Part shown: positions 1,209 through 64,000 of the stretch, in pieces
Position numbering within the stretch: the first letter of the stretch is position 1
Layout: each line of letters starts with the position of its first letter
Source of the DNA: Candidatus Gottesmanbacteria bacterium
GTDB lineage: Bacteria; Patescibacteriota; Microgenomatia; 2-02-FULL-39-11
Reading direction: 5' to 3'
Length of the DNA: 64,000 nucleotides
NCBI GenBank assembly: GCA_016186795.1
Contig: JACPKY010000001.1
Span: forward strand, 129,357 to 193,356
Made by a program: the position numbers and the translations under genes
Notes under the pieces: model-generated
What the model saw: only the letters and a program-made list of their open reading frames with translations
Databases searched by the model: none
Told to the model about the DNA's origin: nothing

Positions 1209-1220
1209 TACAATCACTCC

Positions 1221-2444
1221 ATGGTGAAACGGATTCTCTACTCAATCCTCGTTGTAACTGGTCTTTGCCTTGTGACTGCTGGTGTCATTTCCTACGGACG
1301 TGGGTATCGCTTTGACTTCAAACAAAAAACTATCTCTCCAACAGGAATCCTCTCTGTCGCATCATACCCTGAGGGCGCATCAATTCTCGTTGATGGAAAA
1401 TTACTTTCGGCAAGTAACGCCTCTCTGAGTCTGGACCCAAACTGGTATGATGTGAAAGTTGAAAAAACAGGATACCAATCGTGGAACAAAAGAGTCAAAA
1501 TTCAGGGAGAGGTAGTAACCAAAGTCGACGCTCTCTTACTTCCCACGAGTCCGTCACTTCGAGCTTTGACGGTTACCGGTGTCACTTCGCCAACTCTTTC
1601 CCCAAGCACAACACGTCTTGCGTATATCGTCCCTGAAGAAGAATCTACTTCTTCCGCCAACTTGCCTCCCAGACGCGGTGTTTGGATTATGGATCTTCGA
1701 AATAGTGCACTAGGAGGGAATCCTCAACCTCGACAGGTGTACCTCTCACCAGAAGGTTTAGATCTAAGTGGAGGGGAAATTCTCTGGTCACCGGATGAAA
1801 AACAGTTGCTTTTCCTGGTAAAAAAACTTTCCGGGCAAAAAGAAACAGTTATCTCCGCTCTCCAAATTAGTCTCGATGGAGGAAGTATCCCTGTTGAAGT
1901 TGGAAGAATCTATCCGACTATCATTTCCCAATGGGAAACGATGAGGAAAGAACAAGAAGATATCCTTCTTACAGGCATACCGATCACGGTTGCACAGACT
2001 TTAAAAAATGGAGCTTCCACAATCCACTTTTCTCCTGATGAAACCAAGATCTTCTACCAGGCAACGGGATCGGCAACGATTGAGAGAGTAATTGATCCGC
2101 CCCTTATCGGAAGTAATTCAACCGAAGAAACTCGAACTCTTACGCCAAAAAATTACTATATCTACGATGTGAAGGAAGAAAAGAATTTTGCTTTAACTGA
2201 CGGGAAATCATTTCCAAATCCCTCGTCACTTTTTTGGTATACTGATTCAAAACATATCGTAATGATAGAAAAAGATACTATATCTATCATTGACTATGAC
2301 GGCCTGAATAAACGGGCAGTATTTCAAGGATCGTTTGAAAATGGTTATGTCTTCCCGTGGAGTAGCGGAGGGAAGCTTGTTATTTTAACAAGACTTACCA
2401 AATCTAGCCCATTCCCCACTCTGTACGAGATTGATCTTCGCTAA
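1221..2444 (+). CDS. Membrane-anchored PEGA-domain / beta-propeller (TolB-like) protein
   Basis: ORF 1158..2444. Probable start 1221 (MVKRIL, TM helix). PEGA-like segment ASYPEGASILVDGKLL...YDVKVEKTGYQSW. WD/TolB-like repeats downstream. Confidence 0.55.
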   Translation: MVKRILYSILVVTGLCLVTAGVISYGRGYRFDFKQKTISPTGILSVASYPEGASILVDGKLLSASNASLSLDPNWYDVKVEKTGYQSWNKRVKIQGEVVTKVDALLLPTSPSLRALTVTGVTSPTLSPSTTRLAYIVPEEESTSSANLPPRRGVWIMDLRNSALGGNPQPRQVYLSPEGLDLSGGEILWSPDEKQLLFLVKKLSGQKETVISALQISLDGGSIPVEVGRIYPTIISQWETMRKEQEDILLTGIPITVAQTLKNGASTIHFSPDETKIFYQATGSATIERVIDPPLIGSNSTEETRTLTPKNYYIYDVKEEKNFALTDGKSFPNPSSLFWYTDSKHIVMIEKDTISIIDYDGLNKRAVFQGSFENGYVFPWSSGGKLVILTRLTKSSPFPTLYEIDLR

Positions 2445-2451
2445 TTGGAAT

Positions 2452-3216
2452 CTATTTCAATACGTCCCCTTCCGGACGAGCAAAAACGATAAGCCGCTTA
2501 AGTGTCGTCCCGGGTGGCCAACACGTTTGCAGCGTTAATTGCTCATGAGTCGTTGGAACGGTTAAATAGTGGACTTCGGAGGGATCAACAATCAGTTTAT
2601 TGACTACCCGATAGATGTGTCTGTTTCCTTTATAAAACACATCGACTTCATCGCCGTTTTCCAGTTCTTTCAGGAGATAAAAAATAGCATTGTATCTTCC
2701 CACATTCCAAAATGCATCGGTTGAGTGGGCGAAAAGATAGATGTTTCCTGATATTCCCGGAAATACAGTACCTGCGGCGTGGGCAACGCCCTTTTCCAAT
2801 GTGGAAAGGTATTCATCGGGATTCCCAGCATCAACATTTGGGAAAATCGGAGCGTTTGCGCCAATTTTGGGTATGATGATACCAAACTGCGCAGAGACTG
2901 GTGACAGAACCTCGGTTTTATTCCCACCGGTAATATTTCCAAAAAATGTTGGTTTTCCAGAAGGGGTTGGAGTCACAAGAGATTCAAGGGAAGGTGAAGG
3001 CGTAATTTCTGTAACTGGAACTGTTTGGGTTGGATACTCAACAACATAACGAACATTTCTTGCAAGATTGATGCGGTAGAGAAATTCCAGATAGAAAGCC
3101 GGACCAAAGGTCATTGCCATGCCCCAGAGGGAAAAAAGGAGAAAGAAATTCCCAAGGGTTCGCAGGATAAGAAACTGGATTTGGTGACGGCTAAGTTTCA
3201 TAGGAACTTCTTCCAA
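2452..3216 (-). CDS. Sortase (transpeptidase) family protein
   Basis: N-terminal TM. Catalytic His (IYLFAHS) and TLxTC motif (QLTLQTCWP). Conserved Arg downstream. Confidence 0.75.
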   Translation of the reverse strand: MEEVPMKLSRHQIQFLILRTLGNFFLLFSLWGMAMTFGPAFYLEFLYRINLARNVRYVVEYPTQTVPVTEITPSPSLESLVTPTPSGKPTFFGNITGGNKTEVLSPVSAQFGIIIPKIGANAPIFPNVDAGNPDEYLSTLEKGVAHAAGTVFPGISGNIYLFAHSTDAFWNVGRYNAIFYLLKELENGDEVDVFYKGNRHIYRVVNKLIVDPSEVHYLTVPTTHEQLTLQTCWPPGTTLKRLIVFARPEGDVLK

Positions 3217-3225
3217 AATAACGTG

Positions 3226-3299
3226 CGCCCCTACCCAGACTCGGACTGGGAATCGCCCCGTTAGGACCGGGGTGCTCTATCCAATTAAGCTATAGGGGC
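3226..3299 (-). tRNA. tRNA-Arg (anticodon CCU)
   Basis: Reverse complement folds as cloverleaf: acceptor GCCCCTA/TAGGGGC, D-arm GCTT..GAGC, anticodon stem CCCCG/CGGGG with loop GUCCUAA, T-arm CCCAG/CTGGG. CCA not encoded. Confidence 0.85.
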
Positions 3300-3355
3300 A
3301 AATAACTTCAATTTGATTGTATTTTACCACTTACGAAGGTACAATAGGAAGAAAT

Positions 3356-3432
3356 CGGGGTGTAGCGCAGTTGGCTAGCGCGCATCGTTCGGGACGATGA
3401 GGCCGGCGGTTCAAGTCCGCCCACCCCGACCA
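3356..3432 (+). tRNA. tRNA-Pro (anticodon CGG), CCA encoded
   Basis: Acceptor CGGGGTG/CACCCCG, D-arm GCGC/GCGC, anticodon stem CATCG/CGATG with loop UUCGGGA, T-arm GGCGG-TTCAAGT-CCGCC, 3' ACCA. Confidence 0.85.
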
Positions 3433-5669: not shown

Positions 5670-6527
5670 TCAAGTAAGACTAATTAAAACAACCCCTACT
5701 AGACTACTTGTAATTCCAATTTTTTGCTGCGGATTTAACCGTTCATGGAACACAAACCTTGAAAGAACAACAAAAAGAACTGGAAATGCCCCTGCAATAG
5801 GAGCAACTGTTGATGTATATCCAGAAAGAATCCCAATATTGTAGGCAAAATCTGCCATGGTAACCAGAAGAGTGTACAGAACAATCACTGTAACTATCGA
5901 ACTGGCACGGAAAACTTTAAAGATATTTTTCCTGACTCTTTTAAATATAGGAAGAATTAGGGCAATAAGATAAATCGGGTATAGTGACCAAAACCAGCCG
6001 ATTGTCTCAACCGGAATTCTTATAAGAGACAAGCTAATCCCCCATCCCAACATTCCGCCAATGGCATAGGGAACTCCGGAATTACTGATTGCTCCTTTTA
6101 GACCTTTTTCCTTAAGAAGAGATATATCCAATGAGGAAAGCACAATACCAGAAACGACAAGAAAGATCGCTACAAGTTGGAGAAGTGAAGGCGTCTCTCC
6201 AAAAAAGAAGATCGACATAAGCACTGCTACCACTGGAAATCCTCCGCCGGAAATCGTTCCTACAATTGAGGCATTCCCAACCTCAAGTGCCCGGAAATAG
6301 GAAATATTTCCAAGACTATGAATAATATTGATAAGAAATGCCACGATAAACATACCTATTTCAGGAAATTCTCCTGCAAAAGGAATATAGAGAGTTGTTA
6401 ATATCAGGGCCAATAGAAATCCCCAAAAGTAGGCATGGACATTCCCAATCTTTCTCGATGCAATTGTTACGAAAATATCCCCTGTCCCCCACCCGATAAG
6501 GGCAAGAAAAGCAAAAAGAGTTGCCAT
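5670..6527 (-). CDS. EamA/DMT-family transporter (10 TM)
   Basis: 285 aa polytopic membrane protein with duplicated 5-TM halves. Confidence 0.7.
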   Translation of the reverse strand: MATLFAFLALIGWGTGDIFVTIASRKIGNVHAYFWGFLLALILTTLYIPFAGEFPEIGMFIVAFLINIIHSLGNISYFRALEVGNASIVGTISGGGFPVVAVLMSIFFFGETPSLLQLVAIFLVVSGIVLSSLDISLLKEKGLKGAISNSGVPYAIGGMLGWGISLSLIRIPVETIGWFWSLYPIYLIALILPIFKRVRKNIFKVFRASSIVTVIVLYTLLVTMADFAYNIGILSGYTSTVAPIAGAFPVLFVVLSRFVFHERLNPQQKIGITSSLVGVVLISLT

Positions 6528-6574
6528 ACTTTTGCTATTGTAACAGTAATAATTAAGAAGTATATAATAACCAT

Positions 6575-8308
6575 ATGATGAACCGCTCCTATCTTACTCA
6601 ACTTTCTCTTCACCAAAAAAATCCTCAAAAGTGGATTTCCTGGGGAAAAAAGCTTCTGAAACAAGGCAAAAATCCATTTGAAATTTTCTATACTCCTGGT
6701 ATTGGTGAGATCATCCTTCTTGGGAAAAAGAAAAGAGAGAAACTTGATCTTCCACCAGCCCTCCAACCTCTCTCTCTTGAGCCAAGACTTTCCACCCTTT
6801 ATAGGGAAAACAAAAATCTCTTTCGCAAGAAACTTTTTACACTTCTAGAGGAAAAAGTTTCTCAAATAGAAAATCTTCGCGGAGTCAACCGAAGGCCCAC
6901 GCAAGGCAAGAATCTCTTATCAGGATGGGGTGCTGTTGTTACAAATAAAAAACGGGTATTAGGTTTTGGCGAAGTTCCAGATGGTGGTGAGTGGATAACA
7001 CGGGGTAAGTGCGACTGTTACGAAATGGCAACTGAGGGAAAAATCTGGAAAATGCTAGCCCTTGCAATTGATGTATCCGAAATTACAGACTCGAGGCAAC
7101 ATGACCAGTATGTTTTTGCTATTCTCAAAATACTCCAAAGTACTAGAATTTCTCTTATCCAGTTTGAGGATTTCGATGGGATTTCTGCTTTTCGAATTCT
7201 GAAAAAAGCACGGAAAATTCTCCATGTACCTCTTTTTAATGATGATATTGAAGGAACTGCCTGGATTTTGTGGATGGCAAAGCTTGCTGCCAAGGGAAGA
7301 AGTATCATTACAAGTTCAAAGTTTAAAGTGCAAAGTTCAAAATTAAACCTCAAAGCCCACGACATAAGAAAAATTAAGTTCCTGCTTCGTAGTGAATCAG
7401 TTCATGCTAGAAAAGAAGGAACTTTGCTTTTTCGAGATTCACTCTTTTTTTTCCATGGAGGTGGAGCGGCGGCAATTGGTGGAGGGATCTTTTTCAAAAA
7501 AATGCTTCTGAAGATGTATCTCCACAGTGGAATATCAAAGGTTCAAGCCATTCGGTTAATTAATAGACAAATTATTCTTACCGATAGTCATGGACTTTTG
7601 TATAAAGGAAGGACATCAAAAATAAAAGAAGGCCAAAAGCAAGAGTTCAAACCGTTCCAAAAGGATCTTCTTTTGAGAGAAAAACGGATTCTAGAGAGAT
7701 TAAATGCGCGTGGCCAAATAATTTCCTTGGAGAAATGTATCGATTTTTATGGCCAACACTTTCTTGGTAGAAATGGAACAATATTTCTTATTGGCCTGAC
7801 GGGACATCCTGGACAATTTAATGAAAAAGTTATTCGTACGGCAAGAACCGTTGTTAACATGCATAATCCTCACTCTGACATTTTTATTGACAGCGGATCA
7901 AATCCCACATACTTAACTGAAATTCTTACAAAAAAAGAGTCCCACCTCTTTCAAAAATCATCGCCAGATGAGCAAAGAAAAATTTTGGCTCAAGCCGTCC
8001 TAAGAGTGAAAAAAGCAGCCAATTCACTGGTAGTTTTAACAACTGGGAGCCCGTTTCATGTTCCTAATTTCCCTATTGGACAACTGAATAATCTCTTTGG
8101 GTTCCCGGCAGCGGGACTTGCGGTACTTACAAGAAAGGCACATGCCATTACCGATGAACTCGGGGAATCTGTCGCCCAGGCAAATGTAGAATTTCTAATC
8201 AACCATTATCCTAAAGCATTAAAAGATGGAATGCTCTGCCCACCAATTGAAAGTATTTTTGAAATGACAAAGAATGCTATCAATACTCGTGGATCTCAGA
8301 GGGATTAA
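6575..8308 (+). CDS. Malic enzyme family protein (divergent, with insertions)
   Basis: YTPGIGE, FNDDIEGTA and GGGAAAIGGG Rossmann motifs align with YtsJ/MaeB-type malic enzymes. Long Lys-rich insertions. Confidence 0.65.
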   Translation: MMNRSYLTQLSLHQKNPQKWISWGKKLLKQGKNPFEIFYTPGIGEIILLGKKKREKLDLPPALQPLSLEPRLSTLYRENKNLFRKKLFTLLEEKVSQIENLRGVNRRPTQGKNLLSGWGAVVTNKKRVLGFGEVPDGGEWITRGKCDCYEMATEGKIWKMLALAIDVSEITDSRQHDQYVFAILKILQSTRISLIQFEDFDGISAFRILKKARKILHVPLFNDDIEGTAWILWMAKLAAKGRSIITSSKFKVQSSKLNLKAHDIRKIKFLLRSESVHARKEGTLLFRDSLFFFHGGGAAAIGGGIFFKKMLLKMYLHSGISKVQAIRLINRQIILTDSHGLLYKGRTSKIKEGQKQEFKPFQKDLLLREKRILERLNARGQIISLEKCIDFYGQHFLGRNGTIFLIGLTGHPGQFNEKVIRTARTVVNMHNPHSDIFIDSGSNPTYLTEILTKKESHLFQKSSPDEQRKILAQAVLRVKKAANSLVVLTTGSPFHVPNFPIGQLNNLFGFPAAGLAVLTRKAHAITDELGESVAQANVEFLINHYPKALKDGMLCPPIESIFEMTKNAINTRGSQRD

Positions 8309-8699
8309 ACATAAGATCTGTTTCTCGTCCGGCAGCTTCACTATTTTCGGAAGCATGGATGGCGTTTGCTTGAATATCTGTTCCAAAATCCCCCCTGATT
8401 GTTCCTTTTGATGCCTTTCGACTATCTGTTGGACCACAGATTTCCCGGACTTTGGCAATAATATTGTCTCCTTGCCAGAGCATGGCAAAAATAGGAGTTG
8501 AGGTCATGTATGCTTTGATTGAAGGAAAGTATGGTTTATTTCTGTGATGCTCATACCATTTGGCAACAATATCATCGGGGAGTCGTAGAAATTTTGCTGC
8601 GACAATGCGAAATCCCTGTTTTTCAAGTCTCGTTATTATTTCTCCAACTACTGAACCCAGCACTGCATCTGGTTTAATAAGAATAACTGTGCGTTCCAT
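8280..8699 (-). CDS. ndk: Nucleoside diphosphate kinase
   Basis: MERTVILIKPD, NIIHASE-like active-site His region (NAIHASEN). 139 aa. Confidence 0.9.
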   Translation of the reverse strand: MERTVILIKPDAVLGSVVGEIITRLEKQGFRIVAAKFLRLPDDIVAKWYEHHRNKPYFPSIKAYMTSTPIFAMLWQGDNIIAKVREICGPTDSRKASKGTIRGDFGTDIQANAIHASENSEAAGRETDLMFNPSEIHEY

Positions 8700-10012
8700 T
8701 ATTCAAACTTTAATAATTTTCTAAACCGTTCCTCTTCTTTATACGGTCCAATAACGGCTAAATTCAGTGTATCATGTTTGAAAATATCATTGGCAACCCT
8801 CGTTACATCGGAAAGAGTAACACTATCGATCTCTTTCATAATATCCTGGGGAGTCTTTATATCTTCTTCCAAAAGTTCCTCTGAAGAAAATAATGCTGCC
8901 ACATTTCTGCTATCCTCAAGTTCCAAAACAAATCGTCCTTTGAGATATTCTTTTGCCTTGACCAATTCCTCATTGGTAATACTATTAAGTCTGACTTTGG
9001 CAAATTCCTCAAGCATTACTTTTATCGCATCGTCAATCCGTGCAACATCAACTCCTGCTTGGGTGACAAAATTACCAACATCAACGTACTGCTCGTTGGA
9101 TGAACGTACATAGTATGCCAGTCCTCTTCGCTCTCGAACTTCAATAAAAAGTCGAGATGACATCCCGCCTCCAAGTATTGCAGTTAGCACTCCAAGTTTG
9201 TATCTGCTAGGGTGTGTCAAATAGTATGACCGAAAGCCCAAACACAAATGTGCTTGTTGTGTATCCTTATATTTAACTAGTACTTGTGGTTCATCTTGCT
9301 TATCAGTAACTTTTTCCGGCTGTTGAACTTTTTTCGTTTTCCATCGACCTAAAAACTGTTCTACAAGTTCAAGAATTTTTTCCTGACTCCATTTGGTTCC
9401 AGCCCCAACACCACCAGCAATAGCAACAATGGTATTGGCAGGGCCATAGAATCGATCAATATATTGTATGAAATCTTCTCTTTTGACACTTTTGATTACC
9501 TCTTTTCGACCAGAGATATCTCTTCCAAGCTTGGTATCCCCATAGAGAAGATTTTCATAAAGGTCACCTACCTTGCGCATTGGAGTATCCTCGTACATGT
9601 TGATTTCTTCAATAATGACTCCCCTCTCTTTCTCGATTTCGTTCGCGTCAAATTTCGAGTGGAGAAGCATATCAGAGAGAACGTCAAGCTGGAGAGGAAG
9701 GTGCTGGCTGGCAGCTTTAATGTAATAGCCTGTATGGTCTTTGGAGGTAAAAGCGTTGAATTCTCCGCCAATACCATCAATTAGTGATGAAATAGCAAGA
9801 GCAGATGGCCGATTCTGTGTGCCTTTAAAGGCCATGTGTTCCAGGAAATGGGAGATGCCGTTGATATTTTTCTCTTCATACCGAGATCCTGCCCCCACCA
9901 TGAGAAGAACAGTAACCGAAGCAACGCCTGGTACAGGAATCGTTACTAGCCTGAGATTATTGGGTAAAGTCTGCTTGTTGTACTGCATACAAACGCTGAA
10001 GAATCCTATCAT
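8699..10012 (-). CDS. M16-family zinc peptidase (insulinase-like)
   Basis: HFLEHMAFKGT inverted zinc-binding HxxEH motif. Typical ~430 aa. Start possibly at MQYNK (9988). Confidence 0.85.
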   Translation of the reverse strand: MIGFFSVCMQYNKQTLPNNLRLVTIPVPGVASVTVLLMVGAGSRYEEKNINGISHFLEHMAFKGTQNRPSALAISSLIDGIGGEFNAFTSKDHTGYYIKAASQHLPLQLDVLSDMLLHSKFDANEIEKERGVIIEEINMYEDTPMRKVGDLYENLLYGDTKLGRDISGRKEVIKSVKREDFIQYIDRFYGPANTIVAIAGGVGAGTKWSQEKILELVEQFLGRWKTKKVQQPEKVTDKQDEPQVLVKYKDTQQAHLCLGFRSYYLTHPSRYKLGVLTAILGGGMSSRLFIEVRERRGLAYYVRSSNEQYVDVGNFVTQAGVDVARIDDAIKVMLEEFAKVRLNSITNEELVKAKEYLKGRFVLELEDSRNVAALFSSEELLEEDIKTPQDIMKEIDSVTLSDVTRVANDIFKHDTLNLAVIGPYKEEERFRKLLKFE

Positions 10013-11979: not shown

Positions 11980-14900
11980 TTAATAGAGTATTTTCCAGAC
12001 TGTTTCATATCGCTTTTGTTGATAAAAATCAGCATAATTGCTCCTAATTGTATTCCAGTCTTTCCCATACCCGTCATACATCCAGCGGTATGTATCATAC
12101 GTTTTAGGATCATTTTTTGCTAACCAATTAGTTAAAGTTTTTAACGCCGCCTTTACCTGTGATTCTGTGGCATTGGGATCATGGAGAACTTCATATTCAT
12201 CAGCAAGGTCATCGGGAAAGTTTATTCCATCGAGTAATTTTATCGCATCACTTGCGCTTCTTCCACAAAACGTTGTCGTAATCGTATTTGATCCTCCTCC
12301 AAGAAACTGAGGAGGATATCCCCTTATAATACCTGCTTTTACTTCATCGTGACTTATAAGATTGATATCAACTAATTGAATCGCATGTCCATCGTCGGTA
12401 TATAAAATTAGCTCCATATCCTCAAGATCGCTCATTTTTTTCGTAATCTGAGCCTCGGTCAGTGGCCGCCTGCTGATGCCTCCTTCTAACCATTCACGTA
12501 TCCCTTCCATAGGCTCTCCTCTTCCTGCCCACAGTCCCGAATGAGGCCACATGATAATACCCCCATGAACATTTACTTGATAGGTTGCTGCGTAGTGAGG
12601 AGGTTCATGAATTTCCACCTTTGGATCATAAATTACTTTATCCAATCTTGACCCTGGACCAAATATCTCTGGATGGTTACTTGTCAAAGTTGTTGTCTTG
12701 TCAGGATAAAATCCAAATTGTGCCAGCATGTTGTCTGCCGTTGCCTTGGGGATTTTTTGGGACTCAATAATTCTTTCCCAATCCTGTGTTGTAGTAAGAT
12801 TTTGAGCCTTTCCAACTTCAATTGGCACCTGAACAACGCTTGCGTTTTCTCCGTTTGCTAAAGGTTCACCGTTTGGTCCAATTGGAATCTGGACTACTTG
12901 TGCTGGTTTGGAGACAACTGAACTGGCCGGACGGGTATATTCAGGCATTCCTGTTTCCTTATTGAAACGGATATCGGATTCACTTTCTCCCTGTGGACCA
13001 CTTGGAAGGTCTGGTTCTGTCTTTACAAGTTCAGCCATCCCAGTTTCCTTGTTGAAGACAAATTTCGATCCGCTGGTATTATTATTGTTTACAACCTCAT
13101 CTGGTTTAAGTTCAGCCTCTTCTTCAACTTCTGGGGCTTGACTACTTTTATCTGTAGCCTCAAAAACATCATCTTTCTTCTTCCCTTCTGGAAGAGTATT
13201 TGCTTCTTGATTTCCTTCTCCCTCTTGACTTGTTCCTCCCTCACTTTCCGGCTCAACAGGTGAAGATTCCTCAGTAACAGGGGGTGGAGGAGGAGCAACA
13301 GGCTTTTTCACCAATTCCATCATTCCAGTCTTCTTATTGAATTGAAATGTACCGCTATCAGTTGTAATAAGTTCATCAGTACCTAGTTTCTGGGCAGGAT
13401 CAACGGCAACTTCCTCATACATCCCTGTTTCTTTATTGAATACCAGAACTTTAACAGGTCCATCTGCCGGAGGGGCATTTGGTGGAACCTCTGGGGGAGA
13501 CTCTTGCCCACGCATATCTTGTAATTTTTTGATATATCCAAGATCTTCACCGGTTCTTCTCTCAAGATCTGCTAAGCGCTCTAATTGATGAATATCAATT
13601 GGTTTCACCATGATATCGGTTCGGACCGTTACGGCATCTCCCGGACTGATACTTATACTGCCCTCAATAAGGCCTTTGTTAGCAGCATAAAACTTTCCAA
13701 AAGATTTATCCGACCATTCCGGACTATTGACAAGTTCACGCAATTTCTGAGCATCGGAAAGGGAAATTTTCCCACGAGCAATAAATGTATCAAGGAAACT
13801 ATCAAGGACCGGTTTTGCGCTTCCTGCTTCTGAGTAAAAATCTTGGGTAAATAATCCGGCATCGATCATTGCTTTTGTAACGCTACTTCCCTTCTCTACG
13901 GTGAGAGTTTTGAAAGCTGAGGCTGCAACAGATTGAGGGGCACTCAATGGTGCATTTTCTGTAACAATATTTGGTTGCAAATTCCTAGCTGCAAGATTTG
14001 CTTTTACCTCTGCCATCTGCTCTTTCATTTGGGCTTGATCGACAGCTTCGGTAACTGTCTGTCCTCCAAGCGGATTTTGATTTCCTGCTGATGCCACATT
14101 AACATGTGCGTTAACTCCCTGTGTTGGGTTCGGATTGAGGAGTGACTGTTCTGCAACAGATGTTGTATATCCTGATGGGGTAGAAATATTTTTGCTAGTT
14201 GATAAAACATTGTATGTTGACTCTCCAAGTGCAACAGGTTTTCCCGTATCTACTACAGAAGACCCACTGTTGCCACTTGCCAAAGGATCATATTTGATTT
14301 CCGGTTCGACTACATTTTCATTTACTCTTTGAGCCTTCATGAAGGCTTGAACCTTGGCATCTCGCGCTGGATTAGGTTCAGTATCAGCTTGAGGTTTTGG
14401 AATATCATCCCCATTATGATCACCATGAGGAATAATTCCATGTGAGTCTTTTGGAAGTTGAGGAGGTTTAGGTGGAAGAGTATCATTAACAATTGTGACT
14501 CCGGCAACATTGGTGACAACTTTGCTATCTTGGACTATCTGAGGAGCATTTAGGACAGTTTGAGCAACATTGGCAACAACATCCTTGACATGCCCTGCTA
14601 CTTCAACTACCTTTTTCCCAACGTCAAAAAGACCAGCTCCTGCCGCAAATGCTGCAACACCCTTTCCTGCCCCGATAAGTCCAACCCCAACTGCAGAAAT
14701 AGCCCCTTCTCGTGCTGTATCTCGAAAAAATCCTCCTCGGACGCTTCTTCGTGATTTTTGCCACTCTTCTTCAAAGTCACCAACACCTTTCAAAACTCTC
14801 AGAGACTGCTTCAACAGCTTGTAGGCAGTTTCCCGGTCCTGTTGATCGACAGCTGTAATAGTTGCTTCCCGAAGGTGGCGGATATCTCGAATGAGTTCCT

Positions 14901-15762
14901 TCTGAGCCGTACGGACAACAAGAGCTTCTGGAGCTTTAGAGCGGAGCTTTTGCCTTGCGGAAGCTAAATACTCTCGATCGAGTTGTTCTGGAGAGGAAAG
15001 AGTATGAGTCCGCGCCTGATCCAAAACTCTGTCTCGAATACCTGTTTGGTAGGCAAACTCAACAACTTTCTCCTCACCACCATGAGCTATTGACCCTGCT
15101 AGGTGTTTTACTCCATGGAAGACTTTCTCTCTTCCTGAAGCTGTAGCAGAAAGGGGCTTTTCTCTACTTCGTGCCTCCCGATGTTTCCCCACTCGCTCTT
15201 GGTAATAGCCTCTTGGTCTTTTTTGGGCAAACTGAATGGTTTCGCGAACTGCTCTGGCTGTCCCTGCACCAGCTGCAACTGCTGCAAGCGCTGCAGGACT
15301 TGTCACTGCTCCAATACCACCAGCAATACTTACTACCTTAAGTCCAAGTTCAGTCTGGGTTGCTGCTCTTGCTGCAAATCCAGCTCCCGCTGCAAGACCC
15401 GTAGTTGTAATCCATTTGCCATATTTTGTGGCCGCTAACCGTGGATTCTCTCGAGCTAATTCTACTTCTTTTTGAAGAGTATGAACAACTTGTTCTCCGG
15501 TTCTTGTTGCAATGTGACCAGCAAGCGAAGCTACCTCACGAATACGGCTCCTATTCACTGCTGTTTGGGCAGTTTGAGCCATTTCTTGGGTAAATTCCGG
15601 TGATCCTACTGAAAGTTCTTTCGGAGAATGAAAGAGAGAAGAAAGGGCCCTACGGGCATCGGCAACTGAACGCTCATAGCCTGCATTGAGTTGGCCAAAG
15701 CCCTGAAGAAGTACATCTCCTGGGGCATGAAAAGATGCTGTTCGTGCGTATTCTGTGTTCAT
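11980..15762 (-). CDS. Giant hypothetical protein (1260 aa) with Gly/Ala-zipper segments and FNKETGM repeats
   Basis: Two glycine-zipper-like hydrophobic stretches (TGLAAGAGFAARAA..., AISAVGVGLIGAGKGVAAFAAGAG). Four copies of FNKETGM/FNKKTGM between Pro-rich linkers. Distinct ~280-aa C-terminal domain. Confidence 0.7.
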   Translation of the reverse strand: MNTEYARTASFHAPGDVLLQGFGQLNAGYERSVADARRALSSLFHSPKELSVGSPEFTQEMAQTAQTAVNRSRIREVASLAGHIATRTGEQVVHTLQKEVELARENPRLAATKYGKWITTTGLAAGAGFAARAATQTELGLKVVSIAGGIGAVTSPAALAAVAAGAGTARAVRETIQFAQKRPRGYYQERVGKHREARSREKPLSATASGREKVFHGVKHLAGSIAHGGEEKVVEFAYQTGIRDRVLDQARTHTLSSPEQLDREYLASARQKLRSKAPEALVVRTAQKELIRDIRHLREATITAVDQQDRETAYKLLKQSLRVLKGVGDFEEEWQKSRRSVRGGFFRDTAREGAISAVGVGLIGAGKGVAAFAAGAGLFDVGKKVVEVAGHVKDVVANVAQTVLNAPQIVQDSKVVTNVAGVTIVNDTLPPKPPQLPKDSHGIIPHGDHNGDDIPKPQADTEPNPARDAKVQAFMKAQRVNENVVEPEIKYDPLASGNSGSSVVDTGKPVALGESTYNVLSTSKNISTPSGYTTSVAEQSLLNPNPTQGVNAHVNVASAGNQNPLGGQTVTEAVDQAQMKEQMAEVKANLAARNLQPNIVTENAPLSAPQSVAASAFKTLTVEKGSSVTKAMIDAGLFTQDFYSEAGSAKPVLDSFLDTFIARGKISLSDAQKLRELVNSPEWSDKSFGKFYAANKGLIEGSISISPGDAVTVRTDIMVKPIDIHQLERLADLERRTGEDLGYIKKLQDMRGQESPPEVPPNAPPADGPVKVLVFNKETGMYEEVAVDPAQKLGTDELITTDSGTFQFNKKTGMMELVKKPVAPPPPPVTEESSPVEPESEGGTSQEGEGNQEANTLPEGKKKDDVFEATDKSSQAPEVEEEAELKPDEVVNNNNTSGSKFVFNKETGMAELVKTEPDLPSGPQGESESDIRFNKETGMPEYTRPASSVVSKPAQVVQIPIGPNGEPLANGENASVVQVPIEVGKAQNLTTTQDWERIIESQKIPKATADNMLAQFGFYPDKTTTLTSNHPEIFGPGSRLDKVIYDPKVEIHEPPHYAATYQVNVHGGIIMWPHSGLWAGRGEPMEGIREWLEGGISRRPLTEAQITKKMSDLEDMELILYTDDGHAIQLVDINLISHDEVKAGIIRGYPPQFLGGGSNTITTTFCGRSASDAIKLLDGINFPDDLADEYEVLHDPNATESQVKAALKTLTNWLAKNDPKTYDTYRWMYDGYGKDWNTIRSNYADFYQQKRYETVWKILY

Positions 15763-16131: not shown

Positions 16132-16180
16132 AGCCTCAGCTCATCTGAGATTCAGCTCCACGAGCTGAGGCTTTTCTTTC
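16132..16180 (+). terminator. Intrinsic terminator-like hairpin (11-bp stem agcctcagctc/gagctgaggct) followed by TTTTCTTTC
   Basis: Read directly. U-tract only on + strand. Confidence 0.4.
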
Positions 16181-16203
16181 CGAAAGTGCGCGCGCCGAGA
16201 GTG

Positions 16204-17091
16204 TTAGTCTCCCCAGTTGACGTTTTCGCCGTCAAAGGTGCCGGTTTCGGCGAGTGCGCCGTTAGCGCTTGCCGTGGGCTTGGGCGTGTAGACCTTGAGA
16301 ATGGTGTCCGCGTCGGGCGTAATGACGAGATAGACGAGCTGTCCGTAATTCTGGGTCTCCAGACTCATCATCTTGCCATTGTCGGCGTCCGAGCGGTCAA
16401 GCACGACGTGGTAAAGATTATCAACCTTTTCCCGCATGAGGGGCGTGCGATTCAATTCAATCTCAAACTGCGCGCCGGATTTGGCGGTAATGGAATAGGC
16501 AACGCCTGATTCCACCGAGAGACCGATAACTTCTTTTCCGCCTTGAATCGCAAAGGGCAGCGCGAACGCGACGTCTTTTTCGAGCTTGAATTCGCGGATC
16601 GCGAGCTGCGCCGGTCCGATGGGCTTGGGCTGTTGCGGGGCTTCGCCGGGCACGACCTCGAGAATGAGCGTCGTCGCGACATCAGGAACGATCTGCACCG
16701 TGACTTTTCCGTTCACCTTGTACCGTAATTCGATTGGTGCAGACTGATCCGAGATACCCACATTCTGAACCCACTTGGTGCCGTTCGTTGTCGAACCTTC
16801 AGCCAGCGGATCGGGTAAGCCGTCTTCGTAGACCGCATAGGCGGCATTGCTTTCCGACCCGAACGCAAGCTTGGTCGTCGCAGGATCAGTCTCGGTGACA
16901 CTTACTTTCCACACCCCTGCGGGAAGTGAAAATTTCACCGCCTGTCCGGCTTCGAGCGTGACCTCGCTCTGAAGACCGACGACTTTCGTCAGCTCCACCG
17001 GCTCTCCAGCGAACGCGATGCCAACCGAGGCGACGAGCGCGAACAAAGCGACGAACAACGCGAACACGAGCATACGAATGTTTTGCAACAT
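16204..17091 (-). CDS. Secreted hypothetical protein in a GC-rich (~58%) island
   Basis: 295 aa. N-terminal signal peptide/TM (MLVFALFVALFALVASVGIAFA). Beta-rich. Confidence 0.6.
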   Translation of the reverse strand: MLQNIRMLVFALFVALFALVASVGIAFAGEPVELTKVVGLQSEVTLEAGQAVKFSLPAGVWKVSVTETDPATTKLAFGSESNAAYAVYEDGLPDPLAEGSTTNGTKWVQNVGISDQSAPIELRYKVNGKVTVQIVPDVATTLILEVVPGEAPQQPKPIGPAQLAIREFKLEKDVAFALPFAIQGGKEVIGLSVESGVAYSITAKSGAQFEIELNRTPLMREKVDNLYHVVLDRSDADNGKMMSLETQNYGQLVYLVITPDADTILKVYTPKPTASANGALAETGTFDGENVNWGD

Positions 17092-18035: not shown

Positions 18036-18380
18036 ATGAAGGTAGTAGTCGACAGTGCACTCGCTCTTTCTGAGCTCAAGAAAATGGCGAAAGCCTCCTT
18101 TGGAACTCTTGTGAAGGTTGTGGTTGATATTGAGAAGGAAATCCTTGTGGTCGATAGTGAGCTCCATGCCGATGAAGAGGCATATCTTCTTTCCCAAGGC
18201 TCACATCAAGAGCACTTATGGGGAATTAACCTCTATCCTGACCTTCCCGAGTCTGAGTGGATAGAATTTGACTCCATGATTAACCTCCGTCCAGCTTCAG
18301 GCAATATTTCTCGAGGAGTTAACAATCCTGCAATTCGGGAAAAAATTGTTTTTATTGTCAATAAACGTATCAAAAGATGA
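18036..18380 (+). CDS. Small hypothetical protein (114 aa)
   Basis: Upstream TATAAT at 17963. 4-bp ATGA overlap with the next gene. Confidence 0.55.
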   Translation: MKVVVDSALALSELKKMAKASFGTLVKVVVDIEKEILVVDSELHADEEAYLLSQGSHQEHLWGINLYPDLPESEWIEFDSMINLRPASGNISRGVNNPAIREKIVFIVNKRIKR

Positions 18381-18712
18381 CTATCTACCACAAAAAACTT
18401 GCATCTGGAGACTGGAAACAGTTATCTTTCCTAGAACAGATGGCACATATTGGGAGCGAAGTCATTCGAGCCGTGAATTGGAAAGAGAGAAACAAAGCAA
18501 TCGCCGACAAAGCTCTGGAAAGAGCCCTAGAACTTATCGACCTGACTCGAAATACTGATAGAACGGTCTCTCAGCTGAGAGAGCTCTGTCGAGTAAGAGA
18601 GCTTCTTATTGATTTCTACTTCGGATTTGGAAATTACATCTCGTCAAAAGAAGAATGGGAGAAATACTTCTACCAAGTCACCTACGCTGCTCAACTGAAG
18701 CGACAAAAATAA
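18377..18712 (+). CDS. Small hypothetical helical protein (111 aa)
   Basis: Translationally coupled to 18036..18380. Confidence 0.55.
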   Translation: MTIYHKKLASGDWKQLSFLEQMAHIGSEVIRAVNWKERNKAIADKALERALELIDLTRNTDRTVSQLRELCRVRELLIDFYFGFGNYISSKEEWEKYFYQVTYAAQLKRQK

Positions 18713-23089: not shown

Positions 23090-23761
23090 TTATTCTGAAA
23101 CTGTGGGGGTAATTTCTCCAGTCGGAGAAATTGTCTCTACTACTGTGGGAGATATCTCGACAGAAGTCGGTTCTTGAGGAGTATGAGTCCCGGTTGGCAC
23201 TGAATCTATAATTGCCGAATGCCCATCTTCTTTCAACTCGCCGTTTACTCCATCGACAAAAATAACTTGAGATTCTGAAATGACAATTGATACGTCACTT
23301 TTTGCCTCTTTAATAATCTCAAATGAGAATGATGGAAGATTGACAACTCCTTGAGGAGCTGAATTTTCCGATTCTGCCCCATACAGTATTTTAAAACTCC
23401 CCTGATTATTGGCTTTCTCAGAATCTGTACCTTTCAAGAAACTCATACCATCTGCTTTTTTGGACGGATCGATTGATTGCAGTTTTAAATGACTTGAATC
23501 AAACCGGATACTTAAAAGTACTGAGGCAATTTTTCTATTTCCAATTCCAACAATTTTAGCGGCAACCGAAATTCTTTCTTCGACACTTCCCTTTTGCGAT
23601 TTAGGAAAAAGAGAAAGTTTTATTTCCCGATCGGAAACTGTTGCTTGAGTACGAGTTTCCTGTTTTTGTGTGGAGATATTTTGAGATAAAAAGACTGTAA
23701 GAACAGCAAGAACCGCTGTTGCGGCGATAATCGATCCAACATATATTTTTTTCTTACTCAT
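23090..23761 (-). CDS. N-terminally membrane-anchored cohesin-like beta-sandwich protein
   Basis: TM at N-terminus. ~140-aa beta-rich module (ISVAAKIVGIGNRKIASVLLSIRFDSSHLKLQSI). Start abuts the stop of the dockerin-bearing protease gene. Confidence 0.45.
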   Translation of the reverse strand: MSKKKIYVGSIIAATAVLAVLTVFLSQNISTQKQETRTQATVSDREIKLSLFPKSQKGSVEERISVAAKIVGIGNRKIASVLLSIRFDSSHLKLQSIDPSKKADGMSFLKGTDSEKANNQGSFKILYGAESENSAPQGVVNLPSFSFEIIKEAKSDVSIVISESQVIFVDGVNGELKEDGHSAIIDSVPTGTHTPQEPTSVEISPTVVETISPTGEITPTVSE

Positions 23762-42768: not shown

Positions 42769-43524
42769 TTAGACAGAAAGCGAAATGCCGCCAGTATGGG
42801 GAAGAACGATAAGTTCACGTTCAAGAGGGATTAATGTCACCATGCGATCTGGAAATTGTCCGATTTGATACGTTGTGATTGGACGATATCCTCTCATTAC
42901 TGGATAGGAAAAGGGTTCCCCTTCTCCACCAATTTCGATGGCATTCCCGGTCCAAATTGGTTTGATTTCCGTCCAAGAACCACCATTTGTAGGCGACTTT
43001 CCATTCCCATTGAGAATAATTGCATTCAATTCATGTTCTAACTCTTTGAGATTTTCGGCAACCTGCCACCTTTGTATAGGGATACTTGCGGAATTACCAT
43101 TCTGGTTGACCCGAAAGAGTGCTCGGGATCCTGAAGAAGCAAGAGTGACTGTGTACATTTGTCCCTGCTGTAATTGTATTTGTTTTGCTTCTTTCCCACT
43201 TGAAGAAAGTGCAATAGGATCTTGGACTGGAGAAGTATTCAAACCGAGATCCTCTGGTAATCTAACTGATCCATCAATTTGTCTTCTATAAAATTCTGTC
43301 TTATCATCCCGTACAACATAGACTCCTCGCTCATAGGAAACTGTCCGGCCTGTTCGATCGTGTGTCCTAACAACAGGAACAATGCCAACCCTTCCTCCAC
43401 TCACTTCTATCTGGAAAGGAAGTTGCAGAGGTCCCTGCGAGGTTTCAACAGTAGGAGGGGTCGGTTTATGAAAGCCACTTTCTTTTTGTGCTTCGATTGC
43501 TAATTGGAGCTCTTCAGATACCAT
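42769..43524 (-). CDS. Hypothetical protein (251 aa)
   Basis: Clean ORF, no motif recognised. Confidence 0.5.
   Translation of the reverse strand: MVSEELQLAIEAQKESGFHKPTPPTVETSQGPLQLPFQIEVSGGRVGIVPVVRTHDRTGRTVSYERGVYVVRDDKTEFYRRQIDGSVRLPEDLGLNTSPVQDPIALSSSGKEAKQIQLQQGQMYTVTLASSGSRALFRVNQNGNSASIPIQRWQVAENLKELEHELNAIILNGNGKSPTNGGSWTEIKPIWTGNAIEIGGEGEPFSYPVMRGYRPITTYQIGQFPDRMVTLIPLERELIVLPHTGGISLSV

Positions 43525-60205: not shown

Positions 60206-64000
<3,795 letters not shown>

What the first reader, a model, noticed from the sequence alone, without database searches (positions are those of the whole stretch)
11980..15762. 1260-aa protein with glycine-zipper membrane segments and four FNKETGM repeats
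The N-terminal third is Ala/Gly-rich with two glycine-zipper-like hydrophobic stretches, reminiscent of tape-measure or pore-forming proteins. The middle has Pro-rich linkers separating four near-identical FNKETGM(x)E(L)V peptides. The C-terminal ~280 aa form a distinct globular domain (…HEPPHYAATYQVNVHGG…FCGRSASDAIKLL…). No secretion signal is present. It is convergent with another 620-aa unknown gene. Candidate polymorphic effector or structural protein.
Basis: seen in the sequence. Interest (0 to 1): 0.55.

Follow-up and report, generated by a model that had tools for sequence, protein, structure and literature searches.

The report
Giant surface protein with sortase-like tip
This 1260-residue protein of an uncultured Gottesmanbacteria (CPR) bacterium belongs to a rare, undescribed family whose conserved end domain most resembles a sortase, and it sits next to a secreted protein carrying a sortase-type LAETG tag.

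Summary
ORF 11980..15762(-) encodes 1260 aa with Ala/Gly-rich hydrophobic stretches, four FNK(E/K)TGM peptides and a globular C-terminal domain. It is identical to a Candidatus Gottesmanbacteria hypothetical protein and matches no Pfam, NCBIfam, PHROGs or PDB sequence.

An exhaustive search of 1.84 billion representatives found only 13 distant relatives. They share the architecture: N-terminal module, middle domain, Pro-rich spacer with short hairpin repeats, C-terminal domain.

The C-terminal domain folds confidently (pLDDT 86). His1074 and Cys1166 are invariant, and Cys1166 is the only cysteine in the protein. Its best structural match is sortase, but weakly (Foldseek E 0.056, TM about 0.3). 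Profile comparison (P about 0.008) puts His on His, Cys on the TLxTC Cys, and the last strand on the sortase Arg strand.

In the five loci of long family members that have upstream DNA, the gene directly upstream encodes a signal-peptide protein. Three of these end in a strict LPXTG-like motif (LAETG here; P = 4e-7).

Best reading (about 0.45): a membrane-anchored stalk carrying a very divergent sortase-like Cys/His domain that acts on this partner. Export of the domain is unproven. The tape-measure, pore-former and polymorphic-toxin readings are not supported.

The parts
11980..15762 (-). Whole CDS, 1260 aa, of an undescribed CPR protein family (stop codon 11980-11982)
14563..15471 (-). Conserved N-terminal module (aa 98-400), present in 10 family members. 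It consists of a hydrophobic Ala/Gly stretch, a basic segment, a helical region and a second Gly-rich stretch. It has no relative in PDB or Pfam.
15253..15414 (-). Hydrophobic Ala/Gly-rich stretch 1 (aa 117-170), conserved across the family with a nearly invariant Arg. Putative membrane hairpin or anchor.
14626..14706 (-). Hydrophobic Gly-rich stretch 2 (aa 353-379). It is clearly hydrophobic only in the query and P0002 and carries charged residues in most relatives.
13951..14505 (-). Low-complexity spacer 1 (aa 420-604), rich in Ala, Val, Asn and Pro
13573..13950 (-). Family-specific middle domain (aa 605-730; consensus '..LxVxKG....L...G.......GSAK.FL......G.I......L.......P..S...L.......F.GL..V.PG..I'). 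It is found in 10 members and is duplicated in P0011. No PDB or Pfam relative.
12808..13545 (-). Pro/Glu-rich spacer 2 (aa 740-985). It carries the four hairpin repeats and two 'VVQ(I/V)PI' motifs.
13402..13452 (-). Hairpin repeat 1: KVLVFNKETGMYEEVAV
13303..13353 (-). Hairpin repeat 2: GTFQFNKKTGMMELVKK
13018..13068 (-). Hairpin repeat 3: SKFVFNKETGMAELVKT
12928..12978 (-). Hairpin repeat 4: SDIRFNKETGMPEYTRP
11983..12765 (-). C-terminal domain (aa ~1000-1260), a sortase-like His/Cys domain. Residues 1045-1260 were modelled at pLDDT 86.
12541..12543 (-). His1074 codon. It is invariant in 13/13 members, lies at the end of a beta strand ('IIMWPHSG'), and aligns with the sortase catalytic His.
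12412..12513 (-). Helical insertion 1 (aa 1084-1117), between the His strand and the next strand. It carries the invariant Glu1086, Arg1089 and Gln1105.
12265..12267 (-). Cys1166 codon. It is invariant in 13/13 members, is the only Cys in the protein, lies at the end of a beta strand ('TITTTFCG'), and aligns with the sortase TLxTC Cys.
12022..12255 (-). Helical insertion 2 (aa 1170-1247): six helices between the Cys strand and the last strand, with the conserved motif 'NPxAxxxxVxxAxxxLxxWLxxxNP'. It is partly duplicated in P0004, P0006 and P0010.
12010..12012 (-). Arg1251 codon, at the start of the last strand ('KRYETVWKILY'). This position is Arg in 10/13 and Lys in 3/13 members. It aligns with the sortase beta8 Arg once insertion 2 is excised.
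16204..17091 (-). Partner gene directly upstream on the same strand: 295 aa, with a signal peptide (MLQNIRMLVFALFVALFALVASVGIAFA|G), beta-rich, no Cys, ending '...GALAETGTFDGENVNWGD'. It is a distant homologue of the genes upstream of P0007, P0009 and P0008.
16240..16254 (-). LAETG, an LPXTG-like sorting motif in the partner protein, 11 residues before its C-terminus
2452..3216 (-). Canonical sortase of the same genome (PF04203, E 6.4e-23). It is a possible alternative enzyme for the partner, and its relatives were used as the reference profile.

Best explanation
The gene encodes a modular cell-envelope protein of a rare CPR-restricted family.

Proposed mechanism:
1. The conserved N-terminal module (aa ~98-400), with its Ala/Gly-rich hydrophobic stretches, holds the protein in the cytoplasmic membrane. 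This is inferred.
2. About 600 residues follow: low-complexity, Pro/Glu-rich spacer containing a family-specific middle domain and four FNKETGM beta-hairpins. These form an extended stalk. This is also inferred.
3. The stalk ends in a catalytic domain with a very divergent sortase-type fold. The shown features are the invariant His1074 at the end of one strand, the invariant Cys1166 at the end of another, and a basic residue (Arg1251) opening the last strand.
4. Compared with a sortase, the domain has two helical insertions. One lies after the His strand and carries the invariant Glu1086, Arg1089 and Gln1105. The other is a six-helix bundle between the Cys strand and the last strand.
5. The likely substrate is the secreted 295-aa protein encoded directly upstream, which ends in LAETG plus 11 residues. 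By analogy with sortases, Cys1166 would attack the Thr-Gly bond, form a thioester, and pass the partner to an amine acceptor on the wall, on another protein, or on the stalk itself. Step 5 is inference from the fold resemblance and the conserved gene pairing. No chemistry has been shown.
For: 1. Family and architecture. An exhaustive phmmer search of 1.84 billion representatives found 13 relatives. They share the N-module, the middle domain, repeats in a Pro-rich spacer, and the C-domain.

2. Catalytic-type conservation. His, Cys, Glu, Arg and Gln are invariant in 13 sequences that are only 21-29% identical. The invariant Cys is the only Cys in 9 of 13 members, for example 1 in 1260 aa in the query.

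3. Fold. AF2 with the 13-sequence alignment gave pLDDT 86 and pTM 0.80. The order of elements is strand-strand(His) / helices / strand-strand / helix / strand(Cys) / helices / strand, which is the sortase beta3-beta8 order plus two insertions.

4. Structure search. The best Foldseek hit in PDB is a sortase (5utt_A, E 0.056, probability 0.87). More than a dozen other sortases of classes A, C and E follow at E 0.3-3. No papain-like, NlpC/P60, CHAP or caspase-like entry appears in the top 50.

5. Profile comparison. hhalign against a sortase profile gave P = 0.0088. It aligned His on His, Cys on the TLxTC Cys, and the 'GD.v.v....Y.V' hairpin on 'MELILYTDDGHAIQLVD'. With insertion 2 excised, P = 0.0073 and 'RYxxVW' aligns on the sortase beta8 'RLiv' strand. 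The real score was 23.5. Column shuffles gave 11.0 +/- 1.9 (0 of 100 reached the real score), and the reversed alignment scored 9.9.

6. Pfam. The Sortase model gives a weak hit for member P0002 (E 0.05) in the same region.

7. Partner gene. In all five loci of long members with upstream DNA, the preceding same-strand gene encodes a signal-peptide protein of about 300 aa (the L004 one is cut off at its 5' end, so its signal peptide was not seen). Their C-terminal tails are LAETG (window), LPQTG (L004), MPSTG (L008), MPGTSG followed by a hydrophobic stretch and RRR (L006), and VPKVG followed by an amphipathic tail (L003). A profile built from three of these finds the window protein at E 0.0015. 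The motif [LIVM][PA]xTG in the last 50 aa occurs in 4 of 297 ORFs, and 3 of those 4 are these upstream genes (P = 4e-7).
Against: - Similarity to sortase is below every conventional threshold. HHalign probability is at most 5.3%. Foldseek TM is 0.31/0.36 with rmsd 7 A. A 12-column block shuffle reached the real hhalign score in 3 of 120 trials.
- The query has no Pfam Sortase hit. The single member hit (E 0.048) is one of nine noise-level families.
- The beta1/beta2 part of a sortase barrel was not modelled.
- The position of the sortase Arg is Lys in 3 of 13 members.
- Export of the C-domain is unproven. There is no signal peptide. The second hydrophobic stretch is not hydrophobic in most relatives. 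The basic segment after stretch 1 suggests the chain returns to the cytoplasm.
- The same genome has a canonical sortase, which could process the partner by itself.
- Another LPXTG protein with a short tail lies elsewhere in the window.
- The window partner lacks the hydrophobic and basic tail of a classical sorting signal.
- In the loci of two short members (P0002, P0012) the upstream gene is a small TM protein rich in Pro and Thr. The P0012 one has no LPXTG-like motif, and the P0002 one ends only in a degenerate 'TPATGLGDG'.
- One member (P0008) lacks the family C-domain.
Confidence: 0.45

Rival explanations
1. The C-terminal domain is a Cys/His hydrolase that does not perform sortase-type transpeptidation. 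It could be a protease, a cell-wall endopeptidase or an amidase. The protein would be a surface-anchored lytic or processing enzyme, for example for remodelling its own wall or attacking a host cell envelope. The neighbouring LAETG protein would be sorted by the ordinary sortase.
For: The invariant His/Cys pair and the single Cys per protein show a thiol active site but not its chemistry. Three further invariant residues (Glu1086, Arg1089, Gln1105) lie in an insertion that sortases lack. The sortase Arg position is Lys in 3 of 13 members. A canonical sortase exists in the window and in L005. Large anchored proteins with a C-terminal cell-wall hydrolase domain are common in monoderm bacteria (from general knowledge).
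Against: No papain-like, NlpC/P60, CHAP or amidase structure appears among the top 50 Foldseek hits. His precedes Cys by 92 residues and both lie at strand ends, as in sortases. This rival does not explain the conserved pairing with an LPXTG-like partner.
Confidence: 0.22
2. The giant protein is mainly a scaffold or acceptor. The partner protein would be ligated by the housekeeping sortase onto the stalk, for example onto a Lys of the FNKETGM hairpins, or onto the wall beside it, to build a surface fibre or adhesin. The C-domain would be a binding or regulatory module, not the ligase.
For: The gene pair is conserved. The stalk is repeat-bearing, Pro-rich and variable between members. A canonical sortase is present in the genome.
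Against: An invariant His, an invariant Cys that is the sole Cys of the protein, and an invariant Glu, Arg and Gln at 21-29% overall identity are typical of an active site, not of a binding module. The hairpin motif and its Lys are not conserved in relatives.
Confidence: 0.15
3. The protein is cytoplasmic or membrane-associated on the inside, and the resemblance to sortase and the neighbouring LPXTG-like genes are coincidental. The function is then unknown, with a thiol enzyme domain.
For: There is no signal peptide. The only well conserved hydrophobic stretch is followed by a strongly basic segment. The second stretch is not conserved as hydrophobic. All sortase similarity scores are sub-threshold.
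Against: Pro/Thr/Glu-rich spacers with short hairpin repeats and near absence of Cys are typical of extracytoplasmic proteins of monoderm bacteria (general knowledge). The association with upstream secreted LPXTG-like proteins has P = 4e-7. Three independent methods point to the same fold.
Confidence: 0.12
4. One reading: a phage tape-measure or pore-forming protein, or a polymorphic toxin effector.
For: Gly/Ala-rich hydrophobic segments and large size occur in tape-measure proteins. A variable central region with a distinct C-terminal domain is reminiscent of polymorphic toxins (general knowledge).
Against: There are no PHROGs hits and no significant BFVD structural match. All seven fetched loci with informative flanks are chromosomal housekeeping contexts without phage, Rhs, LXG, CDI or T6/T7 genes. 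The C-terminal domain is the most conserved part of the family, not a swapped variable tip. There is no conserved downstream immunity-like gene.
Confidence: 0.03

Closest known systems
Sortases (MEROPS C60, Pfam PF04203), especially enzymes encoded next to their dedicated substrate such as class C pilin sortases and SrtB
   Same: - The order and spacing logic of the catalytic elements is the same: a hydrophobic strand ending in His, a 'short strand - long strand' hairpin, a hydrophobic strand ending in Cys, and a last strand opening with Arg.
- It is the best structural match in PDB.
- The protein is anchored through its N-terminal part.
- It is encoded next to a secreted protein with an LPXTG-like C-terminal motif.
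   Different: - There is no significant sequence match to PF04203.
- Two helical insertions (about 35 and 80 aa) are absent from known sortases.
- The family has extra invariant Glu, Arg and Gln residues.
- The Arg position is Lys in some members.
- The catalytic domain is separated from the anchor by about 600 residues of stalk, not by a short linker.
- The anchor is a conserved 300-aa module, not a single TM helix.
- The partner's sorting signal here has no hydrophobic tail.
The canonical Gottesmanbacteria sortase of the same genome (window 2452..3216, minus strand)
   Same: Local motifs are similar: 'GNIYLFAHS' vs 'GGIIMWPHS', 'GDEVDVFYKGNRHIYRVVNKLIVDPSEV' vs 'DMELILYTDDGHAIQLVDINLISHDEV', 'EQLTLQTC' vs 'NTITTTFC', and 'KRLIVFARP' vs 'KRYETVWKI'.
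   Different: The canonical enzyme is 254 aa with one N-terminal TM helix and a clear PF04203 match (E 6.4e-23). It has thousands of close relatives, whereas the target family has 14 clusters.
Large N-terminally anchored cell-wall hydrolases of monoderm conjugation or envelope systems (VirB1-like proteins such as PrgK, TcpG, CwlT)
   Same: Both have an N-terminal membrane anchor, long linkers and a C-terminal thiol enzyme domain. One relative (P0012) lies 1 kb from a T4SS pilin-like gene.
   Different: Those enzymes carry NlpC/P60, CHAP or SLT domains, with Cys before His at a helix N-terminus. No such fold or Pfam match was found here. The other loci contain no T4SS genes.

Membership tests
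Sortase (Pfam PF04203 / MEROPS C60) | Significant match to the family HMM (gathering score 26.6 bits) | tested here: not met
   The query has no hit even at E <= 10. Only member P0002 reaches 13.8 bits, E 0.05.
Sortase (Pfam PF04203 / MEROPS C60) | Eight-stranded sortase beta-barrel fold | tested here: inconclusive
   The AF2 model (pLDDT 86) has the strand order beta3-beta8 with two helical insertions. The Foldseek top hit is sortase 5utt_A (E 0.056, probability 0.87, TM 0.31/0.36), and many further sortases follow at E 0.3-3.
Sortase (Pfam PF04203 / MEROPS C60) | Catalytic His at the end of strand beta4 | tested here: met
   His1074 is invariant in 13/13 members, follows a strand in the model, and is aligned to the sortase His by hhalign.
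Sortase (Pfam PF04203 / MEROPS C60) | Catalytic Cys at the end of strand beta7 (TLxTC motif) | tested here: met
   Cys1166 is invariant and ends strand 116-122 of the model. It is aligned to the TLxTC Cys. The preceding residues are hydrophobic or Thr ('TITTTFC', 'LLTVVIC', 'LVITYC').
Sortase (Pfam PF04203 / MEROPS C60) | Invariant Arg on strand beta8 | tested here: inconclusive
   The basic residue at the start of the last strand is Arg in 10/13 and Lys in 3/13 members. It aligns with the sortase Arg strand only after the 80-aa insertion is excised.
Sortase (Pfam PF04203 / MEROPS C60) | Extracytoplasmic location through an N-terminal anchor or signal | tested here: inconclusive
   One conserved hydrophobic stretch has KD19 of 1.3-1.9. 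The second stretch is not conserved as hydrophobic. There is no signal peptide. No dedicated topology predictor was available.
Sortase (Pfam PF04203 / MEROPS C60) | Cleaves an LPXTG-type sorting signal and transfers the protein | not testable with these tools
   Only an association was tested. The conserved upstream gene carries LAETG, LPQTG or MPSTG near its C-terminus, with P = 4e-7 against background.
Phage tape-measure protein | Homology to TMP families and location in a tail gene cluster | tested here: not met
   There is no PHROGs hit and no significant BFVD structural match. Neighbours are housekeeping genes.
Polymorphic toxins (LXG, Rhs, CDI and similar) | N-terminal trafficking domain, variable C-terminal toxin and an adjacent immunity gene | tested here: not met
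   There are no Pfam or NCBIfam domains. The C-domain is the conserved part of the family. There is no conserved downstream gene.
Papain-like NlpC/P60 / CHAP hydrolases | Cys at a helix N-terminus followed by His on a strand; fold match | tested here: not met
   His precedes Cys by 92 residues. No such entry appears among the top 50 Foldseek hits. There is no Pfam hit.
Choline/cell-wall-binding repeats (CW_binding_1), considered for the FNKETGM hairpins | Match to PF01473; tandem ~20-aa repeats | tested here: not met
   Pfam scans of the repeat region and of concatenated repeats at E <= 10 gave no CW_binding hit. The repeats are isolated by linkers and are not tandem.
LysM, considered for the middle domain | Match to the LysM model; ~45-aa beta-alpha-alpha-beta unit | tested here: not met
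   There is no Pfam hit for aa 405-1000 at E <= 10. A profile of 11 copies finds nothing in PDB. The domain is about 105 aa.

The most novel reading that the evidence does not exclude
This may be a new class of sortase-fold transpeptidase. It would have diverged beyond HMM recognition and gained two helical insertions. It would sit at the tip of a ~600-residue stalk on a dedicated membrane module and work with a cognate LPXTG-like protein encoded upstream. In an ultra-small episymbiotic CPR bacterium, such an enzyme could ligate or polymerise a surface protein far from its own membrane, for example to build an attachment fibre or to couple the partner to a host-cell surface.
Probability: 0.3. 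Interest if true: 0.75.

Novelty: new variant of a known kind. Interest (0 to 1): 0.58.

Why it matters
CPR/Patescibacteria live attached to other cells, yet almost nothing is known about how their surface structures are built. Many of their large proteins are unannotated.

If this family carries a functional sortase-type enzyme at the end of a long stalk, it extends the known range of sortase architecture and sequence. It also gives a defined enzyme-substrate pair (C-domain plus LAETG protein) that can be tested in vitro without culturing the organism. It could add a new scaffold for protein-ligation tools.

If the sortase reading fails, the result is still a defined new thiol-enzyme domain, with a confident model and candidate active-site residues.

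Tried and rejected
- **Direct annotation.** Pfam, NCBIfam and PHROGs scans of the protein, its neighbours and ten relatives found nothing significant.
- **PDB sequence searches.** The whole protein, the C-terminal 260 aa, and profiles of the C-domain, middle domain and N-module gave only noise: Protein A helix, RbsD/FucU, J-domain and designed helical bundles.
- **Word-indexed homologue search.** With the protein and with the C-domain profile it returned only the protein itself and P0013.
- **Single-sequence AF2** of aa 956-1260 was uninformative (pLDDT 42).
- **Viral structure library** gave no match.
- **GTDB genome scans** gave nothing: the alignment was too divergent to make patterns, and the single protein gave no relatives.
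- **Conserved downstream or convergent partner** was rejected. The 703-aa convergent ORF has no homologue in the other loci.
- **Paralogues** of the N- or C-module elsewhere in the window: none.
- **Choline-binding-repeat reading** of FNKETGM and **LysM reading** of the middle domain were not supported.
- **FNKETGM as an internal sortase motif ('ETG')** was considered. It was rejected as a general feature because relatives carry different hairpin sequences without TG.
- **P0008's different C-terminus** looks sortase-like by eye ('IAFGH...VGLLTCADLGKSRTVLEFV'), but hhalign gave P = 0.19, which is not significant.
- **Literature searches** for sortase in CPR, Patescibacteria and Gottesmanbacteria found no description of such a family.

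Full report
**1.

The window contains a 1260-codon ORF at 11980..15762 on the minus strand. Its product is identical to NCBI hypothetical protein HYW55_00785 of a Candidatus Gottesmanbacteria (CPR/Microgenomates) genome.

The four FNK(E/K)TGM peptides lie at aa 775, 808, 903 and 933, and the two Ala/Gly-rich hydrophobic stretches at aa 117-170 and 353-379. The repeats sit in a Pro/Glu-rich spacer (E 13%, P 12%). They differ at synonymous sites, so the peptide itself is under selection and the repeats are not a fresh duplication.

The N-terminus has no signal peptide. A convergent ORF of unknown function ends 13 nt from the stop codon.

**2. Genomic setting**

The 64-kb window is ordinary CPR chromosome. 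It carries:
- MreB, a canonical sortase, Maf and EamA transporters;
- malic enzyme and an M16 peptidase;
- ArgRS, LeuRS and PBP1;
- ComEA and ComEC;
- an S8 protease with a dockerin.

It holds two tRNA genes. Rfam reported one of them and no other RNA family.

Nothing phage-like or secretion-system-like flanks the gene. PHROGs gives no hit for the protein, its two neighbours or two relatives.

**3. A rare family with a shared architecture**

Pfam, NCBIfam and PDB sequence searches are empty. An exhaustive phmmer scan of 1.84 billion cluster representatives, using aa 61-1260, found only 13 relatives at E <= 1e-3. All are below 32% identity. The ten looked up are each a singleton cluster, from metagenome assemblies.

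Reading and aligning them shows a common plan:
- **(i) N-terminal module.** About 300 aa, consensus 'P...AG..TR.A...GL...GA...PAALAASA.GTGV.TY.RE.........K.YY......H ... SHG.E ... D....S.AH ... K.P.RF..GA'.
- **(ii) Middle domain.** About 105 aa, and duplicated in P0011.
- **(iii) Variable spacer.** It is Pro-rich and carries short strand-turn-strand repeats. The sequence of these differs between members. Examples are 'RWEYQEVANSDGTKGLKLVQV' in P0009, 'ILYKYVEVNEHGQKVFKLVPV' in P0008, and 'IPIIGG' motifs in P0003.
- **(iv) C-terminal domain.** About 260 aa, and the best conserved part.

Neither the N-module profile nor the middle-domain profile finds anything in PDB. The window holds no paralogue of either the N- or the C-module.

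**4. The C-terminal domain**

In a 13-sequence alignment at 21-29% identity to the query, five columns are invariant: His1074, Glu1086, Arg1089, Gln1105 and Cys1166. The invariant Cys is the only cysteine in 9 of the 13 proteins, including 1 in 1260 residues here. This is the signature of a thiol active site.

A single-sequence AF2 run failed (pLDDT 42). With the family alignment, the model of aa 1045-1260 is confident (pLDDT 86, pTM 0.80).

Its element order is:
- strand, strand (ending at His);
- two helices;
- short strand, long strand;
- helix;
- strand (ending at Cys);
- six helices;
- final strand.

That is the order of sortase strands beta3 to beta8, with two helical insertions.

I had noted from the sequence that 'IIMWPHSG ... 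MELILYTDDGHAIQLVDINLISHDEV ... TITTTFCG ... KRYETVWKI' parallels the sortase pattern 'hhhhGH ... GD.i.v....Y.V.....V.p.ev ... LTLxTC ... Rhhhh'. I then tested this four ways.

a. **Foldseek against PDB.** The top hit is a sortase: A. oris SrtA, 5utt_A, with E 0.056, probability 0.87 and TM 0.31/0.36. Sortases of classes A, C and E recur through the list at E 0.3-3. No hit passes 1e-3. No papain-like, NlpC/P60, CHAP or caspase-like fold appears in the top 50.

b. **hhalign against a sortase profile.** The family alignment was extended 60 aa upstream. The sortase profile combined three sources:
- the window's own sortase and its relatives;
- four PDB class C segments;

The result was P = 0.0088 and probability 4.6%, with His on His and Cys on Cys. 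With the post-Cys helical insertion excised, P = 0.0073 and the last strand aligns on the sortase Arg strand.

c. **Null models for the hhalign score of 23.5.**

| Null | Score | Trials reaching 23.5 |
|---|---|---|
| Column shuffles | 11.0 +/- 1.9 (max 16.3) | 0 of 100 |
| Reversed alignment | 9.9 | not reached |
| 12-column block shuffles | 18.3 +/- 2.1 | 3 of 120 |

The block shuffles keep the motifs intact, so they are a harsh null.

d. **Pfam scans of all C-domains at E <= 10.** Sortase appears for one member only (P0002, E 0.048), among nine noise-level families. On its own this means nothing.

No single test is significant by conventional standards. However, three independent methods point to the same fold. 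The invariant residues fall on the sortase catalytic positions. The position of the sortase Arg is basic in all 13 members, Arg in 10 and Lys in 3.

I put about 0.6-0.65 on a sortase-type fold. Strict family membership is not established.

**5. A conserved partner gene**

In every locus of a long family member for which upstream DNA exists, the gene directly upstream on the same strand encodes a beta-rich protein of about 300 aa, with a signal peptide wherever its 5' end is present (the L004 gene is cut off).

| Locus (family member) | Coordinates of upstream gene | C-terminal ending |
|---|---|---|
| Window (query) | 16204..17091(-) | '...GALAETGTFDGENVNWGD' |
| L004 (P0003) | 2-559 | '...EPLPQTGLVETGSGLERILGFLIQVAEAVRKAFGG' |
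| L008 (P0007) | 395-1348 | '...AAMPSTGNAPAIIVRQPNVFERFLGWFLSLFGK' |
| L006 (P0008) | 8453-9448 | '...GTMPGTSG...GGLLPLGAVVFASRRR' |
| L003 (P0009) | 6083-7012 | '...AVPKVGPADMAVKPMAAPNFFAQAWAWLKSLLGK' |

The proteins are related. L003 and L008 match at 2e-9, and L006 matches both at about 1e-5. A profile of these three finds the window protein at E 0.0015 among 1046 ORFs.

The strict motif [LIVM][PA]xTG within the last 50 residues occurs in only 4 of 297 ORFs of at least 100 aa in the window plus loci. Three of those four are these upstream genes, giving P = 4e-7 for at least 3 of 5.

This ties the family functionally to sortase-type sorting signals, independently of the fold argument.

There are caveats:
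- The window partner has no hydrophobic tail after the motif.
- The genome has a canonical sortase (2452..3216).
- Another ORF in the window ends 'LPHTGGISLSV' (42769..43524), so short-tailed signals may be the local norm for the housekeeping enzyme.
- Two short family members (P0002, P0012) are instead preceded by small TM proteins rich in Pro and Thr.

**6. Topology is the weak point**

Only the first hydrophobic stretch is conserved, with KD19 maxima of 1.3-1.9 in ten members. It is followed by a strongly basic segment. The second stretch carries Lys, Arg or Glu in most relatives.

Several features fit an extracytoplasmic C-terminal part:
- a possible hairpin plus a third crossing in the query;
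- the Pro-rich stalk;
- the near absence of Cys (one search gives the comparison with other proteins of the window);
- the secreted partner.

This remains inference. No dedicated topology predictor and no further structure jobs were available.

**7. Mechanistic proposal and rivals**

Best explanation (0.45): the protein is a membrane-anchored stalk bearing a very divergent sortase-like Cys/His/Arg domain. That domain cleaves and transfers the upstream LAETG protein.

Rivals:
- a thiol hydrolase without transpeptidation (0.22);
- a scaffold or acceptor onto which the housekeeping sortase ligates the partner (0.15);
- an intracellular thiol enzyme with a coincidental context (0.12);

**8. Novelty**

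The family has no Pfam or NCBIfam model. I found no mention of it in papers on sortases in CPR, Patescibacteria or Gottesmanbacteria.

If the sortase reading is right, this is a new variant of a known enzyme kind, with an unprecedented architecture:
- two helical insertions;
- a 600-residue stalk;
- a dedicated N-terminal module;
- a cognate substrate gene.

If it is wrong, the C-domain is a new thiol-enzyme fold variant with defined candidate catalytic residues.

Noticed in passing
window 61001-64000 (+ strand, runs off the window end): The last 2 kb has 64% GC and strong purine skew, against about 42% GC elsewhere. An open reading frame on the + strand explains this. It encodes a beta-rich N-terminal part followed by a very long collagen-like (Gly-X-Thr)n repeat ('[34 protein letters not shown]...'), reminiscent of BclA-type bacterial collagen-like surface proteins. 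The minus-strand '[10 protein letters not shown]' ORFs listed there are shadows of it.
   Followed up: partly
window 23090-23761 (-) and 23761-28926 (-): A 1721-aa S8 subtilase with a C-terminal type I dockerin is followed immediately downstream by a 223-aa cohesin-domain protein. This is a cohesin-dockerin pair in a CPR genome, suggesting a surface-tethered protease.
   Followed up: no
window 42769-43524 (-): A 251-aa ORF with no Pfam hit ends 'LIVLPHTGGISLSV': an LPXTG motif only 6 residues from the C-terminus. Together with the LAETG protein, this suggests that sortase signals in this genome have very short tails.
   Followed up: partly
window 2452-3216 (-), 1158-2444 (+), 3225-3432: The canonical sortase (PF04203) lies between a PEGA-domain protein and a divergent tRNA-Arg(CCT)/tRNA-Pro(CGG) pair. 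Relatives at 60-79% identity are abundant in Gottesmanbacteria metagenomes (4078 hits).
   Followed up: partly
L010 4825-5142 and 9076-11472 (locus of relative P0012): A T4SS pilin-like gene (PF18895) lies 1 kb upstream of the family member. A downstream protein of at least 799 aa contains a hydrophobic Gly/Ala stretch followed by 'GRRNRN...F..H', resembling the family N-module. The HMM match is not significant (E 0.74).
   Followed up: partly
P0008 aa 730-904 (L006 10001-12715): This family member keeps the N-module and middle domain but has a different C-terminus. By eye it shows a compact sortase-like string ('IAFGHFDVF...GERVGLLTCADLGKSRTVLEFV') followed by a second His-strand-like segment. 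hhalign against sortase gave P = 0.19, so this is unresolved.
   Followed up: partly
window aa 1190-1215 of the target (about 12118-12195): The helical insertion carries a conserved 'NPxAxxxxVxxAxxxLxxWLxxxNP' motif. It gives weak sequence matches to Protein A B-domains and to a J-domain helix. The motif is duplicated in P0004, P0006 and P0010. This is probably only helical-motif resemblance.
   Followed up: partly
window 18036-18712 (+): Two small overlapping ORFs (114 and 111 aa, sharing 4 nt) look like a toxin-antitoxin-type pair. They were not examined.
   Followed up: no
window 16140-16190: A GC-rich inverted repeat (GCCTCAGCTC...GAGCTGAGGC) lies directly after the stop of the LAETG gene. 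A 441-nt intergenic region follows, with a sigma-70-like site at 15847-15819 on the minus strand. The partner and the large gene may therefore be transcribed separately. The pattern scans were not above chance.
   Followed up: partly
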